Counted from the first letter of the stretch, positions 5,246 to 16,619 are shown. The stretch: DNA of 64,000 nt from an uncultured Acidimicrobiia bacterium (GCA_963810905.1 CAWEPG010000002.1:242178-306177), one strand, 5' to 3'. The notes: generated by a model from the sequence alone, not told the origin. Made by a program: numbers and translations.

Positions 5246-5612
5246 ATGTAGGAGCGCTCCCTATGGATTGAATAGTGATGTACCCGGAGGACCTAACGGA
5301 CCTCATCCAGAAGTTTGGGATGTTGACTTTTGCCGGGGGCAGGCATAGGATTTTTTTCAAGAATTGGCACATACTTTACGCTGTTAGTGTAATAATCGGC
5401 AAGAGGCAAGACTGCCCGAAAACCCAGCTATTATCAACTTATCAGGGCAAAATTGCCTGATAATCAATGGTTCCTCGGATGCGCATCGCCCCATCCATCG
5501 GCTCTTCGGCGCTTCGCGCCTCAGAACCATCGGATGAAGCTGCCTACTCGCCTGATAACCGGCGCGTCTCTGCACCGGTTATTTGGCTGCGCCGCGCTCA
5601 TCCGGGGCGTTA
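5246..5612. repeat. Three-copy repeat, copy 1 (5' module 5246-5505, 3' structured module 5506-5612 with perfect hairpin 5555-5582)
   Basis: ~75-90 % identical to 13591-14028 and 16333-16619. Homology ends at ...GGGGCGTTA, 17 nt before the ATG at 5630. Confidence 0.8.
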
Positions 5613-5629
5613 ACTCTTTTAGGGACATT

Positions 5630-6043
5630 ATGGAAAATACTCTCACAGTAGAATTCCGCCTAATGGGTAGAGGCTTTGTTCCAAAGGAATTGAGCCGAGA
5701 CTTGGGTATAGAATGCACTGAATATGAACTTGGCGATGATAGGAAACTGACTTTTTGGATTCTGTCCAAAACAAATACTGGGAATATCGACATAAAATCC
5801 TTATGCCAGGAGCTTATTTCTGAATTACAACCAATGCAGGAGAAGCTTTGCAGGTTGATTGAAAAGTTTGATCTGCGTCCCGACTTTTGTCTGCGACTTA
5901 AGGAAAGGCCGAGGACGAGCCACGAGGTTTTATACGGAGAACATCCAGTCATCAATTTCTGTATTGAACCTGCAACAATGCGGTTTTTGTCGGCCATTAA
6001 TGCGCCAATGTTTATAGAACACGAGTATGAAAGTGAGAGTTAA
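5630..6043 (+). CDS. DUF4279-like small protein
   Basis: ATG at 5630, in frame with the ORF-track entry 5453-6043, whose upstream part is repeat sequence. The motif EFRLMGRGFVPKELSRDLGIECTEYELGDDR fits the DUF4279 N-terminal pattern, recalled from memory. Confidence 0.45.
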   Translation: MENTLTVEFRLMGRGFVPKELSRDLGIECTEYELGDDRKLTFWILSKTNTGNIDIKSLCQELISELQPMQEKLCRLIEKFDLRPDFCLRLKERPRTSHEVLYGEHPVINFCIEPATMRFLSAINAPMFIEHEYESES

Positions 6044-6093
6044 CAAGTCTATGCGGCCGACCACTGATGCGCCGGCTGATTGAGGCGTTAGGC
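6041..6093 (+). other. attC-like site (stop-overlapping TAACAAG ... imperfect palindrome ... GTTAGGC core)
   Basis: It starts at the TAA stop of 5630-6043 and ends with a perfect GTTRRRY core (GTTAGGC at 6087-6093) 26 nt before the next ATG. Confidence 0.4.
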
Positions 6094-6118
6094 GACAGGA
6101 TATAAAGGATCTTAAGAA

Positions 6119-7480
6119 ATGAAGTCTTCAGAAACCGCGAAGGTCTTACTTATTTGCGCTTTCTCAATCTTATTCTTGTTCCTGGGGTTCTTTGCGAACT
6201 ATTGGCGGGTAGCCGACCAGCGCTGGTTTGAAAACCACCAGCTTGATATGGAAAGCTACATCATAGGGAGAATGGTCAAATCCAGACAGGATGGCATCCT
6301 TTCATCTGGTGGACTGACGGGTTTAGGGAGCCTCAATGCAACACCGGTACAATTTTCCGATGGGCCTTTCTCTAATCAGTATCTGGCGTACATGAATAAC
6401 CTCCCCTTCGGGGCATATTCAACCTACAATTCCCAAATTGGGGGGCAAGGGATATTCTTCAGCGTTCTAGATAAATTGATAACCGCTTTACCTCAAGAAA
6501 AGTTGCGTATCTTTCATGCGCTTACATCGCTGTTCTCAGCGATCATGTTAACTGCAATCATATTGTGGTTCTATTTGGAATTTGGATTGACCGTTTCGTT
6601 ATTCGTTCTCTTCTCTGCGGTTTTCTCCCAATGGTTAGTAGTTTTTGGCCGAAATCTCTATTGGTCCATGTGGGCATTTTACCTGCCAGTTGTTGTACTG
6701 ATGTACTATCTCAAATTCACTCGGGTACTACCGAATCTTAAGCTGTTCGAACTTGGCACCATATTCCTCATCACGGTCTTCATAAAATGCCTATTCAATG
6801 GCTACGAGTACATCACCTCTACCCTAGTCATCATGTTCGTACCTCTTGTTTACTACATCATTCTGAATCGGGTGAACTTTGGAGAGTCCCTTAAGACGCT
6901 GGGGACAGCAGCATTAGGTTCATGCCTTGGTATATTTTTAAGTTTCAGTATCCTATGTTTTCAAATAGCGTCAGTTAAAGGACATTTCTTGGACGGAGTT
7001 CATCATATTGTATATTGTTTCGAGAAGCGAACCTATGCAGATCCTCGCGGTTTTCCTTCTGAGTACGCTCCTGGCCTGCAAGCGAGTACTACCTCTGTCT
7101 TACTAACATACCTAAAAGGTACGTTCTTTGATCCCGAAAATTACCTCTCTTCAAGCCCATTGGTTTTTCGACATCCAATTCGGTATTCGTACCTGATATC
7201 ACTATTTGTCATAGTATCCGTCACGCTATCTTTCCGCAAAAATCGATATGTTGCCGAAAAGGAAAAACGGAAGTGCGTTGCCTTAATTTGCGCAACATGG
7301 TTTTCTATTCTTGCTCCTTTATCATGGTTCATCATCTTCAAGGCCCATTCATATGTACATACGCATACGAACTACATCGTATGGCAGATGCCGTTTGTTT
7401 TCTTTGGTTTTGCGGGTTGCGGTTTGCTGGTAAGGAATCTGTTTCCCGATTTCATTCGCCTAACAAAGCACTCCACTTGA
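6119..7480 (+). CDS. Polytopic integral membrane protein, function unknown (low GC, ~42 %)
   Basis: 453-aa ORF with 10 or more hydrophobic helices, preceded by AAAGGA. Its GC differs sharply from the neighbouring genes. Confidence 0.55.
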   Translation: MKSSETAKVLLICAFSILFLFLGFFANYWRVADQRWFENHQLDMESYIIGRMVKSRQDGILSSGGLTGLGSLNATPVQFSDGPFSNQYLAYMNNLPFGAYSTYNSQIGGQGIFFSVLDKLITALPQEKLRIFHALTSLFSAIMLTAIILWFYLEFGLTVSLFVLFSAVFSQWLVVFGRNLYWSMWAFYLPVVVLMYYLKFTRVLPNLKLFELGTIFLITVFIKCLFNGYEYITSTLVIMFVPLVYYIILNRVNFGESLKTLGTAALGSCLGIFLSFSILCFQIASVKGHFLDGVHHIVYCFEKRTYADPRGFPSEYAPGLQASTTSVLLTYLKGTFFDPENYLSSSPLVFRHPIRYSYLISLFVIVSVTLSFRKNRYVAEKEKRKCVALICATWFSILAPLSWFIIFKAHSYVHTHTNYIVWQMPFVFFGFAGCGLLVRNLFPDFIRLTKHST

Positions 7481-14673: not shown

Positions 14674-14680
14674 CTGCGTT

Positions 14681-15982
14681 ATGCCGACCGACGATTCTCA
14701 GTCCTCCGAGAGCCGAGACATGAATCAACGCCAAACATTGCCTCACGGTGTAGTTCTGGTGCTCGGGCTGGCGGTGCTGCTCAACTATGTTGATCGCGGC
14801 AACCTCGCGACGGCAGCGCCGATCTTGCAGGACGAGCTCTCACTCTCGGGCGCCCAGGTCGGCTTATTGTTGTCGTCGTTCTTCTGGGTGTATGCACCTG
14901 CGCAGTTGCTGGCAGGGTGGCTGGTGCACCGTTACGAGATCCGCATTGTTCTGGCCGCGGGCATCGCGCTGTGGTCTGTGGCGACCGCCATGACTGGGCT
15001 TGCCGGGGGATTCGCTTCAATCCTGCTTTGGCGCCTGATGCTCGGTCTCGGAGAGAGCGTCACATTTCCGAGCTGGCAGTTGCTACTCGCGCGACACACA
15101 GTCGAGCATGAGCGTGGGCGGGCGAATGGCTTCGTAGGCGCCGGCCAGGGGATCGGGCCGATGCTCGGCACTCTCTTTGGCGGCCTGGCGATGGCCCACT
15201 ACGGTTGGCGTGCCACGTTCATCGGGCTGGGGATCATCACGCTCCTGTGGCTCTGGCCTTGGTTTACCGTTACACGAGTGGGCTTTCATGCGCCGGCTGG
15301 GAAGGATCCGCTGCCGGTCTCATACCTTGCGATCCTTCGGCGGCGGGAGTTCTGGGGCGCCGCACTCGGACATTTCAGCATCAACTACACGTTCTACTTC
15401 GTTATCACGTGGCTGCCGACTTTCCTCGTCAAGGCGGGCGGTTTCACGGTCTCGCAGATGGCGGGGATTGGCGCGGCTATCTATGGCATCTATGCTGTCA
15501 CGACGGCGCTCGCTGGTGCGGCCTCTGATCGTTGGATCCGGCGTGGCGGATCCGCTACGCGAGTGCGCAAGACGTTCGTGCTCACGAGTGCCCTTGGCTC
15601 GGCAGTCACGATCGCGTGCTGCGCGTACGTAGAGCCGCGCGCTGCGGTCTGGTTGCTCGGCGTTGCAGGAGTGTTCTTCGGCCTTTCAACGCCGATGATC
15701 TTCGCCATCGGCGCGACGCTCGCAGGTCCGCGTGCCGCAGGCCGCTGGGCCGGCGCGCAGAACCTGGCGGGCCAACTGGCAGGAATAATCGCGCCAGTCG
15801 TGACGGGCTTAATCGTCGATCGTACTGGCGCCTTCTCCTGGGCATTCGCCGTCGCCGCGGCGTCGGCCGTGTTCGCGATGGTGGCGTGGGGCGTCGTCAT
15901 TCGGCGGGTGGCAGCGGTGCAGTGGCCGGAGGAGCTGGCGCCAGTCCCCTTAGAGCCCCTTGGTGGCGCGAGCCCGCGCTGA
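14681..15982 (+). CDS. MFS transporter (high GC)
   Basis: 433 aa with about 12 predicted TM segments. MFS-like loop motifs are present, for example LGESVTFPSWQLLLARH. Confidence 0.7.
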   Translation: MPTDDSQSSESRDMNQRQTLPHGVVLVLGLAVLLNYVDRGNLATAAPILQDELSLSGAQVGLLLSSFFWVYAPAQLLAGWLVHRYEIRIVLAAGIALWSVATAMTGLAGGFASILLWRLMLGLGESVTFPSWQLLLARHTVEHERGRANGFVGAGQGIGPMLGTLFGGLAMAHYGWRATFIGLGIITLLWLWPWFTVTRVGFHAPAGKDPLPVSYLAILRRREFWGAALGHFSINYTFYFVITWLPTFLVKAGGFTVSQMAGIGAAIYGIYAVTTALAGAASDRWIRRGGSATRVRKTFVLTSALGSAVTIACCAYVEPRAAVWLLGVAGVFFGLSTPMIFAIGATLAGPRAAGRWAGAQNLAGQLAGIIAPVVTGLIVDRTGAFSWAFAVAAASAVFAMVAWGVVIRRVAAVQWPEELAPVPLEPLGGASPR

Positions 15983-16092
15983 GACGTGTCCCTCGACACC
16001 GAAGTGAAGATGGCTGACCTCGATCTCTGGCAAAACGACAGCCCGACATAACAGGCCGTTGGGCGGCCATAACATATAGAAACGAGGGGGCA

Positions 16093-16410
16093 ATGAAGAA
16101 TCTGCGACGCGAGAGGGCTTTAGCCCATCAGGCGCTTGTCCCATCCACGGGGTCTTGGTGTTGGCTTGAATCCGTCATCCTGGCCTTCGGATTCCCAGCC
16201 GTGATTTGGGCGATTTCGAAGCTCATTACGCTGTTCGTCCCAGCCGCCCTCCACAGTTCTAGGGAACAGCGCTTTCTGCAATACATCAGTGGGGGATTGA
16301 TCGCCGAGTGGCTGTTTGTCGCCAGCCTTTGTTTGGGTTCGGTGGGAAAGAGATCCTCCCGGGAATGCCTGTGGTGGAAACGGACAACCTGGACAATCCA
16401 ATCAATGTAG
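16093..16410 (+). CDS. Hypothetical membrane protein. Its C-terminus runs into repeat copy 3, so the call is doubtful
   Basis: 105-aa ORF. The 5' end overlaps a copy of the MITE terminal motif (GAATCTGCGACGCGAGAGGGC). Confidence 0.25.
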   Translation: MKNLRRERALAHQALVPSTGSWCWLESVILAFGFPAVIWAISKLITLFVPAALHSSREQRFLQYISGGLIAEWLFVASLCLGSVGKRSSRECLWWKRTTWTIQSM

Positions 16411-16619
16411 GAGCGCTCCGTATGGATTGAATAGTGGTGAACCCGGAGGACCCGACGGACCTCATCCAGAATTTAGGCTGTTTGCTTTTGCCGGGCGACT
16501 TTTGTTCAAGAAGTGGCACTTAGTTTACGCGGTTTGTGTGAAAATATGCAAGTGGCAAGAGTTCCCGAAAACCAGGTTATTATCAACTTACCAGGGTAAA
16601 ATTGCCTGATAATCAATGG
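16333..16619. repeat. Three-copy repeat, copy 3 (5' module only; the 3' structured module is missing)
   Basis: Homology to copies 1 and 2 stops at ...TGATAATCAATGG, 32 nt before the ATG at 16651. Confidence 0.75.

What the first reader, a model, noticed from the sequence alone, without database searches (positions are those of the whole stretch)
5246..16619. Three-copy 290-440 bp repeat placed immediately 5' of three unrelated cassette genes
Copies lie at 5246-5612, 13591-14028 and 16333-16619 and are ~75-90 % identical. They sit directly upstream of a DUF4279-like gene, a GNAT and a DUF1697 gene. Each has two modules. The 5' module (~260 bp) contains remnants of two overlapping small ORFs (...VGALRMD* and MNPEDLTDLIQ...STYQGKIA*). 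Substitutions between copies 1 and 3 are mostly synonymous, so it was once coding. The 3' module (~107 bp, copies 1 and 2 only) is strongly structured. It has a perfect 8-11-bp stem (ATAACCGGyGC...GCACCGGTTAT, 5555-5582 and 13960-13987) with stem-preserving differences, and terminal complementarity CGGATGCGC/GCGCTCATCCG. In both full copies homology ends exactly at ...GGGGCGTTA, 17-30 nt before the start codon. That is where an attC GTT crossover point would lie. Copy 3 stops exactly at the 5' edge of the structured module. The element could be a repeated small cassette with a homogeneous (VCR-like) attC, a PATE-like (palindrome-associated transposable element) IS200/IS605-related non-autonomous element, or a shared cis-regulatory leader RNA.
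Basis: seen in the sequence. Interest (0 to 1): 0.75.

Follow-up and report, generated by a model that had tools for sequence, protein, structure and literature searches.

The report
Three decayed integron platforms with mini-cassette
The three-copy repeat is three decayed copies of an integron's docking station (a stub of the integrase gene plus its attI insertion site), two of which still hold a tiny gene-less cassette made only of a folded recombination site, so it is a fossil of a known gene-capture system and not a new kind of element.

Summary
The repeat is real: three copies at 5238-5612, about 13482-14028 and 16332-16619, 79-84% identical. On the minus strand, every copy is the N-terminal stub of an integron integrase (IntI residues 1-36, 12 to about 100, and 12-58), broken by stop codons and drifting neutrally. 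Each stub is followed by the integrase-upstream region and the attI site. The attI core CCTGATAATCAATGG|TT is shared with more than 40 integrons from several phyla, many of which have an intact 325-332-aa IntI. Conservation stops exactly at G|TT, and window copy 3 ends at that same point. The 3' module (139-140 nt, copies 1 and 2) lies between two G|TT crossovers. It is a gene-less cassette consisting only of a long branched attC. Its bottom strand folds best. Homologues with an intact R'' box sit at attI or after other attCs in other genomes. A covariance model built from six copies (four Acidobacteriota-type homologues plus the two window copies) finds the same architecture in Desulfobacterota and other integrons. 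The window copies lack the canonical R'' box, no catalytic integrase domain is present in the window, and ordinary attC sites there are eroded. Verdict: relics of a known system, with new family members (an attI type and an attC-only cassette family). How the triplication arose is unresolved.

The parts
5239..5346 (-). Copy 1: integron-integrase N-terminal stub (IntI residues 1-36; ATG at 5346-5344; in-frame TAG). Pseudogene, cut off at 5238.
   Evidence: tblastn with the intact L012 IntI: 72% identity over 36 aa, E 3.5e-12. Profile HMM of 46 IntI: E 1.7e-5. Translation.
5347..5470 (.). Copy 1: integrase-upstream block with the attI site. Core GCCTGATAATCAATGG at 5455-5470; crossover between G5470 and T5471. 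Contains four TGATAA-type boxes and the GGCAAGACTGCCCGAAAA palindrome. Presumed to hold the divergent Pint/Pc promoters.
   Evidence: Conserved upstream of 42-45 integrase genes or stubs from several phyla, with divergence immediately after G|TT. Promoter scans are at chance level.
5471..5609 (+). Copy 1: E, a gene-less attC-only cassette (139 nt) between crossovers G5470|TT and G5609|TT. L'' arm 5473-5484, hairpin B 5488-5540, hairpin C 5550-5587 (attI-like box GCCTGATAAC), L' arm 5594-5607. The canonical R'' box is missing (28-nt deletion relative to L038, L087 and L092).
   Evidence: Bottom strand folds at -78.9 kcal/mol (z -6.6) against -64.0 (z -3.6) for the top strand. Homologues. Covariance model R1 scores 131.8 bits.
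13482..13763 (-). Copy 2: integron-integrase N-terminal stub (IntI residues about 3-100), with a TAA nonsense codon near the N-terminus that is shared with copy 3. This is the longest remnant.
   Evidence: tblastn 56-63% identity, E 1e-22. HMM positions 14-86, E 4e-25. PF13495 E 1.4e-8 and TIGR02249 E 1.3e-8.
13764..13885 (.). Copy 2: integrase-upstream block with attI (core GCCTGGTAATCAATGG, 13870-13885; crossover G13885|T13886). Minus-strand Pint-like TTGATT-18-GATAAT at 13882-13853.
13886..14025 (+). Copy 2: E, the gene-less attC-only cassette (140 nt). Crossover G14025|TT. Carries the same 28-nt deletion as copy 1.
   Evidence: 91.6% identical to copy 1. Bottom strand -79.8 kcal/mol, z -6.8. 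Model R1 scores 125.6 bits.
16332..16505 (-). Copy 3: integron-integrase N-terminal stub (IntI residues about 6-58), sharing the TAA nonsense codon with copy 2. Its left edge lies inside a + strand membrane ORF (16093-16410), which points to an illegitimate deletion junction.
   Evidence: tblastn 74% identity over 47 aa, E 8e-20. HMM E 3.9e-18..
16506..16619 (.). Copy 3: integrase-upstream block with attI (GCCTGATAATCAATGG, 16604-16619). There is no E. The junction reads CAATGG|CGTCTG, which is not the canonical G|TT. The DUF1697 start codon lies 31 nt downstream.
9769..9823 (+). Best ordinary attC-like site in the array (GCCTAAC...GTTAGGC, 55 nt), directly after the Zn-ADH gene.
   Evidence: 7 of 7 R''/R' complementarity; the bottom strand folds as an end-paired hairpin, z -1.8. 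Suggestive only.
16044..16064 (+). Collapsed attC of the MFS cassette (ACATAAC-aggcc-GTTGGGC).
   Evidence: Homology with 92%- and 90%-identical MFS cassettes in L095 and L096, which have different neighbours, ends at 16052/16053. L095 has a full ~75-nt attC at that position.

Best explanation
Each repeat copy is a relic of an integron platform. It consists of a 5' stub of the integron-integrase gene on the minus strand, the integrase-upstream region, and the attI site, whose crossover point (CAATGG|TT) faces the + strand cassette genes. In a working integron, IntI binds attI as duplex DNA and binds the folded bottom strand of a cassette's attC. It then exchanges strands at G|TT, so new cassettes land directly next to attI and are transcribed from the platform promoter. 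That mechanism explains why the repeat ends sharply and is followed each time by an unrelated gene. In copies 1 and 2, the first unit after attI is E, a 139-140-nt gene-less cassette that is nothing but a long attC with a three-way junction. Its own G|TT crossover lies 17-30 nt before the next cassette's start codon. All three integrase stubs are dead (stop codons, no catalytic domain anywhere in the window, neutral drift). The window's E copies have also lost the canonical R'' box. So this is a fossil region in a Terriglobia-like (Acidobacteriota) genome. What is shown: the identity of the stub, the homology and boundary of attI, the boundaries of E, its strand bias and its family. What is inferred: promoter function, past recombination events, and how the three platforms arose (old duplication or separate relics followed by deletions).
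For: Stub identity: PF13495 and TIGR02249 hits. tblastn to intact IntI gives E 1e-12 to 1e-22, covering only residues 1 to about 100. A profile of 46 intact IntI gives E 4e-25, 4e-18 and 2e-5, with no C-terminal hit. Intact relatives are true integron integrases (TIGR02249 426-450 bits, cutoff 265). attI: CCTG[AT]TAATCAATGG|TT lies upstream of 42-45 integrase genes or stubs. 41 of 45 junctions read G|TT, and sequence diverges immediately afterwards. Copy 3 ends exactly there. E: it is bounded by G|TT on both sides. Homologues at attI in L038 and L087, and after a canonical attC in L092, carry R'' (GAGGAAC) complementary to the junction GTTCCTC. In L091 the same 3' half terminates an ordinary antitoxin cassette. 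The bottom strand folds better than the top in single sequences and in consensus. On the structure, 94.7% of cells pair, against 31-39% when partners are slid, and the L stem occurs as GGGCC/GGCCC, GGTCC/GGACC and CCCC/GGGG. Covariance model R1 finds full-length, same-strand matches in other phyla (E 1e-6 to 1e-11). In L078 and L023, three copies each start at G|TT after attI or another attC, and each is followed by a different gene. Array context: about 30 unrelated + strand genes with swinging GC content. The MFS cassette recurs with different neighbours elsewhere. Sister genomes differ by whole genes next to metH.
Against: The window's E copies lack the canonical R'' box, so as they stand they fail one defining attC feature. 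An alternative R''/L''-like half inside hairpin B is only a hypothesis. The copy 3 junction is CAATGG|CG, not G|TT. Ordinary attC sites between the window's genes are few and weak, and a generic scan for AAC...GTT sites is not above shuffle expectation. Promoter scans are at chance level. No intact IntI is in the window, so activity cannot be shown. Covariation rests on six closely related sequences, and the number of doubly changed pairs is not above shuffles. The left edges of the stubs are not at recombination sites. E copies are 91.6% identical while the adjoining platforms are only 78.6% identical, and this is not explained.
Confidence: 0.82

Rival explanations
1. The whole 290-440-bp unit is itself a repeated small cassette (a decayed gene plus a homogeneous VCR-like attC), moved around by the integrase.
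For: The right end is a G|TT crossover and the 3' module is attC-like. Repeated cassettes are common in chromosomal integrons (established knowledge).
Against: The unit contains an internal crossover (attI, CAATGG|TT), at which unrelated integrons diverge and at which copy 3 ends. The coding part is the integrase's own 5' end in its native arrangement relative to attI, as in more than 40 intact integrons. The left edges differ in all three copies, and one lies inside another ORF rather than at an attC.
Confidence: 0.06
2. A non-autonomous transposable element (MITE, or PATE-like IS200/IS605 derivative) that inserts upstream of genes.
For: Multi-copy, strongly structured, with a subterminal hairpin.
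Against: No terminal inverted repeats or target-site duplications flank the unit or E. The ends coincide with integron crossovers. E-family copies in other genomes lie only at attI or after attC ends and are strictly co-oriented with the array. There is no Rfam hit. The 5' module is integrase coding sequence. No dedicated transposase search of the whole window was run.
Confidence: 0.02
3. A shared cis-regulatory leader or promoter module: the conserved block and/or E is kept because it drives or tunes expression of the downstream gene.
For: In class 1 integrons, Pc lies in or next to the 5' end of intI (established knowledge). Gene-less cassettes in Vibrio often carry promoters (bioRxiv 10.1101/2023.11.21.568050). 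Both E and the block always sit directly 5' of a gene. A TTGACT-17-TAGGAT site reads outward in copy 1.
Against: Promoter-like hits are no more frequent than in shuffles and are not conserved between copies. The antisense strand folds better than the mRNA strand. No Rfam family matches. The copies drift neutrally. This function would be an addition to the integron-relic identity, not an alternative to it.
Confidence: 0.07
4. The stubs are copies of a genuine stand-alone gene for an IntI N-terminal (SAM-like) DNA-binding domain, not truncated integrases.
For: The closest database proteins are all 77-135-aa, PF13495-only products. Some sit on long contigs as intact ORFs.
Against: In the window, all three copies carry in-frame stops and drift neutrally. 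The short homologues end raggedly, partway into sequence that continues in full-length IntI. In genome loci, remnants range from stubs to internal deletions to frameshifted full-length genes. The locus search was seeded with N-terminal peptides, so the prevalence of stubs is partly an ascertainment effect.
Confidence: 0.03

Closest known systems
Integron platform (intI - Pint/Pc - attI), as in class 1 integrons and sedentary chromosomal integrons
   Same: A divergently oriented integrase gene and attI. The crossover is at G|TT and cassettes lie on the opposite strand immediately after it. There are several integrase-box repeats in attI (four TGATAA-type boxes, compared with DR1, DR2, L and R in attI1, from memory).
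   Different: Only the first 36 to about 100 codons of intI survive. There are three such relics within 11.4 kb. The attI sequence (CCTGATAATCAATGG|TT) is not that of any characterised class and was not found in the searchable literature.
CALIN / degraded chromosomal integrons with intI pseudogenes (Cury et al. 2016, PMC4889954)
   Same: A run of cassette-like genes without a functional integrase. Loss of intI is one of the proposed origins of CALINs.
   Different: That study searched for pseudogenes only with C-terminal profiles (IntI_Cterm, PF00589) and found them near 15 of 279 CALINs. The relics here are N-terminal only, so that screen would miss them. Ordinary attC sites in this window are mostly eroded.
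Long attC sites with branched variable terminal structure (e.g. Vibrio cholerae repeats, VCR)
   Same: An imperfect palindrome with paired R and L boxes. The bottom strand is the better-folding strand. The centre is branched, the right end is a G|TT crossover, and length is about 130-150 nt.
   Different: E is sequence-unrelated to VCR. One inner arm looks like a short canonical attC and the other carries an attI-like box. In some phyla the R boxes are AAT/ATT instead of AAC/GTT. The window copies have lost R''.
Gene-less (ORF-less) integron cassettes (Vibrio superintegrons, Treponema; bioRxiv 10.1101/2023.11.21.568050; PMC6557892)
   Same: A cassette with no ORF, bounded by crossovers, sitting 5' of other cassettes' genes and recurring within arrays.
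   Different: Described gene-less cassettes are several hundred bp of non-coding DNA plus an attC, and many act as promoters. E is essentially only the attC: 7-12 nt of R' remainder, a 3-19-nt loop, then the attC. No promoter is evident.

Membership tests
Integron integrase (IntI) gene | N-terminal SAM-like domain matching integron-integrase models | tested here: met
   PF13495 E 1.4e-8 and TIGR02249 E 1.3e-8 on the copy 2 peptide. Profile of 46 intact IntI: E 4e-25, 4e-18 and 2e-5.
Integron integrase (IntI) gene | Catalytic tyrosine-recombinase domain with the IntI-specific insertion; intact reading frame | tested here: not met
   No C-terminal match anywhere in the window. In-frame stops in all three copies. 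These are pseudogene stubs, not genes.
attI site | Located upstream of intI, conserved within an integrase clade, with conservation ending at a G|TTRRRY crossover where cassettes begin | tested here: met
   42-45 loci share the core. 41 of 45 junctions are G|TT, followed by unrelated sequence. Copies 1 and 2 read G|TT; copy 3 reads G|CG.
attI site | Recombination with attC catalysed by the cognate IntI | not testable with these tools
   Requires a recombination assay.
attC site (module E) | Inverse core sites R'' (RYYYAAC) and R' (GTTRRRY) that pair | tested here: not met
   The window copies have R' (GTTA...) but lack the canonical R''. Homologues L038, L087 and L092 do have it, e.g. GAGGAAC complementary to GTTCCTC. 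So the family meets the feature, and the window copies are deletion derivatives.
attC site (module E) | L''/L' stem and overall imperfect hairpin, conserved in structure more than in sequence | tested here: met
   94.7% of cells pair, against 31-39% when slid. There are three compensatory L-stem variants. Covariance model hits across phyla.
attC site (module E) | Bottom strand is the better-folding (recombinogenic) strand | tested here: met
   Single sequences: z -6.6 and -6.8 for the bottom strand against -3.6 and -3.7 for the top. Consensus with DNA parameters: -65.4 against -52.9 kcal/mol. 34 G.T cells on the bottom strand.
attC site (module E) | Extrahelical bases at the canonical positions of the L box | tested here: inconclusive
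   Bulged bases exist in the L stem and in hairpin C, but their equivalence to the canonical extrahelical bases could not be established.
Integron gene cassette (module E) | Discrete unit bounded by crossovers and found in different contexts | tested here: met
   The window copies follow two different attI platforms and precede two different genes. L078 and L023 have three copies each, after attI or other attCs, each before a different gene.
CALIN (cluster of attC sites lacking an integrase) | At least two attC sites detected by the IntegronFinder model, with no intI nearby | not tested
   IntegronFinder's attC model was not available. My own scans found one good site and several weak ones.
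MITE / PATE (IS200-IS605-related) | Terminal or subterminal repeats with target-site duplication or a defined target, and copies scattered outside integrons | tested here: not met
   No target-site duplications at either edge. All family members seen lie at integron crossovers.
Known structured RNA family (Rfam) | Match to a curated covariance model | tested here: not met
   No relevant hit at E <= 5 over 4000-18000 on either strand.

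The most novel reading that the evidence does not exclude
E may be more than a dead mini-cassette. 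It may belong to a cross-phylum family of self-propagating, attC-only cassettes built as a three-way junction. In this reading, the outer R/L stem is the mobilisation site, one inner arm is a short canonical attC, and the other arm mimics the attI integrase box (TGATAAYC / CCATTATC). Such units occupy the first position after attI in about one fifth of the integrons sampled (9 of about 47). In some arrays (Electrothrix L078, L023) they precede every cassette examined. That suggests either a minimal selfish parasite of the integron system or an accessory recombination or expression module. Separately, N-terminal intI stub plus attI relics may mark many arrays now classed as integrase-less.
Probability: 0.25. 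Interest if true: 0.65.

Novelty: new member of a known kind. Interest (0 to 1): 0.4.

Why it matters
First, it replaces a puzzling 'repeat in front of unrelated genes' with a concrete explanation from a known mechanism: site-specific cassette exchange at attI and attC.

Second, it yields practical markers. One is the attI core of a large, mostly uncultured integron clade (Acidobacteriota, Desulfobacterota, Nitrospinota, Verrucomicrobiota and others). Another is the observation that N-terminal integrase stubs with attI can persist inside arrays. The standard pseudogene screen uses only C-terminal profiles (PMC4889954) and would miss them, so loss of intI as an origin of CALINs may be under-counted.

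Third, the attC-only cassette family is a compact natural substrate for studying what an integrase minimally needs to mobilise DNA.

Tried and rejected
- **Plus-strand small ORFs** (VGALRMD*, MNPEDLTDLIQ...): rejected. The minus strand gives integrase homology, and the substitutions show no codon bias.
- **Rfam**, both strands, 4-18 kb: nothing relevant.
- **Simple R''/R' plus hairpin finder** for attC over the whole window: one clean site only. Folding of seven hand-picked candidates was mostly not better than shuffles.
- **Enrichment test for AAC...GTT pairs and collapsed-attC scars**, array versus core: not above shuffles, so the general claim was dropped.
- **Search for C-terminal integrase remnants**, to test whether cassettes had inserted into intI: none by tblastn or profile HMM.
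- **Possible fourth relic** at about 23.3 kb and similarity to about 32.0 kb: not significant.
- **Sigma-70 promoter and terminator scans** of the three copies: chance level. A sigma-54-like GGCAC-N5-TTACGC motif seen by eye has A in place of the conserved G at -12 in all copies and was not pursued.
- **Source-contig look-ups** (DUF1697, MetH, and the 100%-identical HtrA entry): not on record. So sequence left of the window, and any intact intI elsewhere in the genome, could not be examined.
- **Sister-genome loci** reach only the metH-proximal end of the array.
- **Inference that N-terminal-only stubs are the predominant form:** withdrawn because of ascertainment bias.

Full report
**1. Observation.** The repeat exists as described. 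A repeat search over 4-18 kb returns three direct copies at 5238/5351-5612, 13591-14028 and 16333-16619. BLAST gives 82.0% (copies 1 and 3, 233 nt, E 2e-63), 78.6% (copies 1 and 2, 234 nt, E 6e-51) and 83.7% (copies 2 and 3, 295 nt, E 3e-89). There are no further copies in the 64 kb. Each copy lies directly 5' of a + strand gene: DUF4279 (5630-6043), a GNAT (14059-14622) and DUF1697 (16651-17187). The structured 3' module is present only in copies 1 and 2, where it is 91.6% identical. It ends at GGGGCG|TTA, 17 and 30 nt before the start codons. Copy 3 stops exactly at the module's 5' edge.

**2. The 5' module is on the other strand.** Translated on the minus strand, all three copies read as the N-terminus of an integron integrase. 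Examples are ...LLDEVRRVLRVHHYSIHTERSYIDWIVQVVRFHHRHSREDLFPTEPK (copy 3) and ...HTERFDADWAVQFVRFHHMHSWKDLFPPEPKIEPFLTHLAVNKNAAPARQNQAMYVRVISL* (copy 2). The peptides hit Pfam PF13495 (E 1.4e-8 and 7.7e-8) and NCBIfam TIGR02249 'integron integrase', positions 1-68 of 315 (E 1.3e-8 and 3.6e-6). tblastn with intact relatives covers IntI residues 1-36 (copy 1, E 3.5e-12), 12 to about 100 (copy 2, E 1e-22) and 12-58 (copy 3, E 8e-20). A profile HMM built from 46 intact relatives gives E 1.7e-5, 4e-25 and 3.9e-18. It finds no C-terminal or catalytic fragment anywhere in the window. Every copy has an in-frame stop, and copies 2 and 3 share the same TAA. Differences between copies are spread evenly across codon positions in the integrase frame (10/6/6, 5/3/5, 5/5/4 and 9/7/5).

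**3. The rest of the 5' module is the integrase-upstream region with attI.** A genome-collection scan with an alignment of the stub and its homologues returned more than 507 relatives, of which 80 loci were kept. About 50 of the 80 are 325-332-aa ORFs. Six that I tested are bona fide integron integrases (TIGR02249 426-450 bits against a cutoff of 265). The rest are stubs, internal deletions or frameshifted genes. Aligning the DNA upstream of these genes with the window copies shows a conserved block that stops abruptly at CCATTGATTA on the integrase strand. In array orientation, the junction reads CCTG[A/T]TAATCAATGG|TT in 42-45 loci, including many with intact IntI. In 41 of 45 the next two bases are TT, often in the GTTRRRY form (TTAGGC, TTGGAC, TTAGCC). 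After that the sequences are unrelated. The consensus over 44 loci is ...TGATAAT...GGGCAAAAnTGCCCGAAAA...TATCAnnTTATCAGGGCAAAAtgnCCTGATAATCAATGG|TT. This is how an attI site behaves: conserved with its integrase, and ending at the cassette insertion point. Window copy 3 ends precisely at that point (G16619). In copies 1 and 2 the point lies at G5470|T5471 and G13885|T13886. A Pint-like TTGATT-18-GATAAT overlaps attI on the integrase strand in copy 2. However, promoter-like matches overall are no more frequent than in shuffled sequence, so promoter assignments are inference only.

**4. The 3' module (E) is a gene-less, attC-only cassette.** It lies between two G|TT crossovers (CAATGG|TTCCTCGG ... 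CATCCGGGGCG|TTA). Its minus (bottom) strand folds much better than the plus strand: -78.9 and -79.8 kcal/mol (z -6.6 and -6.8) against -64.0 and -64.2 (z -3.6 and -3.7) as RNA. DNA parameters give the same direction. The fold is a closing stem enclosing two hairpins. Rfam has no match.

Homologues were found in several places:
- An Acidobacteriota MAG (L038, 82% over 138 nt), immediately after its attI.
- Metagenome contigs. L087 has it after attI. L092 has two copies, one right after a canonical attC. L088 holds a partial copy. In L091 the same 3' half closes an ordinary antitoxin cassette.

The intact form is G|TTCCTCGGCGCG-loop-CGCGCCGAGGAAC (R'') - GGGCCGGATG (L'') - hairpin B - hairpin C - CATCCGGCCC (L') - G|TTnnnn. 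The first 7-12 nt after the left crossover are the complement of R''. That is exactly what is expected if a circle containing little more than an attC was inserted. The L stem occurs as GGGCC/GGCCC, GGTCC/GGACC and CCCC/GGGG.

On the bottom-strand consensus structure, 388 of 406 cells pair, and 34 G.T cells would be A.C mismatches on the top strand. With the formal controls, 94.7% of cells pair against 31-39% when partners are slid. The covariation score is 0.158 against 0.107 in shuffles (0 of 500 reach it). The number of doubly changed pairs (5) is not above shuffles, and there are only six closely related sequences. Consensus folding favours the bottom strand in every subset (for example -65.4 against -52.9 kcal/mol with DNA parameters).

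Both window copies share a 28-nt deletion that removes the hairpin's 3' arm and the canonical R'' box. This deletion is plausibly a slippage event between CCTCGG-like and CCCCGG-like repeats (inference). So, as they stand, they fail one defining attC feature. A second R''/L''-like half (CAGAAC-CAT-CGGATGA) inside hairpin B could substitute for it, but that is only a hypothesis.

**5. E belongs to a wider structural family.** Covariance model R1 was built from six bottom-strand copies (four Acidobacteriota-type homologues plus the two window copies). Beyond the copies it was built from, it finds full-length matches at E 1e-6 to 1e-11. They are always on the same strand relative to intI. The hits are in integron loci of other groups: L078 (Electrothrix, three copies), L023 (three copies), L044, L079, L074, L033, L034, L011 and L091.

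In L078, which has an intact 332-aa IntI, the three copies have exact edges: G|TTCCAAAGG on the left and GGTCAACTCGGCA|TTA on the right. They follow attI or the ends of other attCs, and each precedes a different gene. Joining the ends gives ATTCCAAAGG, the perfect complement of the internal CCTTTGGAAT. L023, L074, L079 and L092 show the same layout. By inspection, L055 and L075 have it too. E is the first unit after attI at 9 of about 47 attI sites. In several members hairpin B is a canonical short attC (L078 GCCCAAC...GTTGGAC; L055 GTCAAAC...GTTTGAC). Hairpin C carries a box like the attI core (window GCCTGATAACCGG against attI GCCTGATAATCAATGG). Whether this family has a function beyond its own mobility is unknown.

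**6. Array context.** From about 4.1 to 34.4 kb, nearly all sizeable ORFs are on the + strand. They encode unrelated small functions typical of cassettes (GNATs, DUF1697, methyltransferase, OsmC, AHSA1, ecotin, globin), and GC content swings between 0.48 and 0.61. metH and housekeeping-type genes follow.

Canonical attC sites are scarce, however. One site is clean (9769-9823, GCCTAAC...GTTAGGC, z -1.8), and the others are weak.

Direct evidence for cassette behaviour comes from the MFS gene. Copies that are 92% and 90% identical lie among different neighbours in L095 and L096. Homology ends at 16052/16053 inside CATAAC-aggcc-GTTGGGC, where L095 has a full ~75-nt attC. So the window's site has collapsed. 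A general test for such scars was not above shuffle expectation.

Sister genomes (HtrA 92-95% identical) share metH and HtrA but differ by whole genes just upstream of metH. The closest named relatives are Terriglobia/Acidobacteriota.

**7. Mechanism and history.** Established integron biology explains the anatomy. IntI recombines duplex attI with the folded bottom strand of an attC at G|TT. Cassettes therefore accumulate next to attI, and excision or insertion at attC sites swaps neighbours cleanly. Here that accounts for the sharp right edges and for the unrelated genes that follow.

The left edges are different. They fall at integrase codons about 36, 58 and 100, and one lies inside a + strand membrane ORF (16093-16410). 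This points to illegitimate deletions rather than site-specific events. No C-terminal integrase pieces remain, so insertion of cassettes into intI is not supported.

How three platforms came to lie 8.4 and 2.7 kb apart is unresolved. The 16-21% neutral divergence suggests old duplications or separate relics. The higher identity of the two E copies (91.6%), together with their shared deletion, suggests later exchange or a more recent spread of E.

**8. Comparison and novelty.** Integrons, intI pseudogenes, CALINs, long branched attCs and gene-less cassettes are all known. The pseudogene screen in IntegronFinder's founding paper used only C-terminal profiles, so relics like these would be missed. 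The attI core was not found in the searchable literature. I rate the finding as a new member of a known kind: a new attI type, a new attC-only cassette family, and an unusual triple relic.

One caution applies. My locus search was seeded with N-terminal peptides, so nothing can be said about how common N-terminal stubs are relative to other decay forms.

Noticed in passing
window 5347-5470, 13764-13885, 16506-16619; loci L001-L087: A conserved attI architecture for a large, mostly uncultured IntI clade: ...TGATAAT...GGGCAAAAnTGCCCGAAAA...TTATCAGGGCAAAAtgnCCTGATAATCAATGG|TT. It has four TGATAA-type boxes (two direct, two inverted). It was not found in the searchable literature.
   Followed up: partly
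L078 5601-5781, 4135-4315, 666-846; L044, L055, L074: In several Desulfobacterota integrons, the R boxes of the E-type cassette are AAT/ATT instead of the canonical AAC/GTT. The right junction reads ...GGCA|TTA, which implies an A|TT crossover.
   Followed up: partly
window 5550-5587, 13966-14003; E elements in L023, L033, L055, L074, L078, L079: Hairpin C of the E element carries an attI-like integrase box on both arms (5' arm ..TAAYC.., 3' arm ..CCATTAT..), often with a bulged C. Hairpin B is a short canonical attC in some members. So one cassette holds three potential integrase-binding arms.
   Followed up: partly
window 14716-16053 versus L095 1943-3281 and L096 1067-2406: The MFS transporter gene is a mobile cassette found at 90-92% identity among different neighbours. 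Its attC in the window has collapsed to R''-5 nt-R' (16044-16064).
   Followed up: yes
window 534-1385, 1745-2917, 2942-3694 (all minus strand): The left flank holds a prolyl oligopeptidase split into two ORFs and a truncated 250-aa Zn-dependent alcohol dehydrogenase. These are probably pseudogenes, so decay extends beyond the array.
   Followed up: no
window 27.6-34.4 kb versus L093/L094 15.3-21.4 kb: Sister genomes (HtrA 92-95% identical) share the globin and ecotin genes. They carry SpoIIE, GNAT and DUF2750 where the window has CobW and an abhydrolase. This is gene-by-gene turnover next to metH.
   Followed up: partly
L004 2114-3104, L005 1501-2238: Group II intron reverse-transcriptase/maturase remnants lie directly downstream of an integrase stub. 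This recalls the attC-targeting group IIC introns.
   Followed up: no
L006 6895-9469: An integrase stub plus one unknown gene appears to sit inside an oligopeptide ABC-transporter ATPase gene pair (a truncated oligo_HPY fragment on one side). This would be a possible insertion of an integron fragment outside an array.
   Followed up: no
window 13345-13372: GCCTAAC-ggtgcaatttatg-GTTTAGCC overlaps the stop codon of the ORF to the left of copy 2. It resembles either a collapsed attC or an attI-like core (compare TTAATAAATGG|TTAGGC in L001). It could mark the true left edge of the copy 2 unit.
   Followed up: no
window 23274-23348 (minus strand) and 32032-32064: A faint IntI N-terminus-like translation (E 1.4) and a 33-nt similarity between two intergenic regions. 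Neither is significant.
   Followed up: yes
window 26236-26295: Two copies of ATGCAAC-N6-GTTGCAT lie 40 nt apart, just upstream of the AHSA1-like gene start. This looks like a small palindromic pair of the attC-core type.
   Followed up: no
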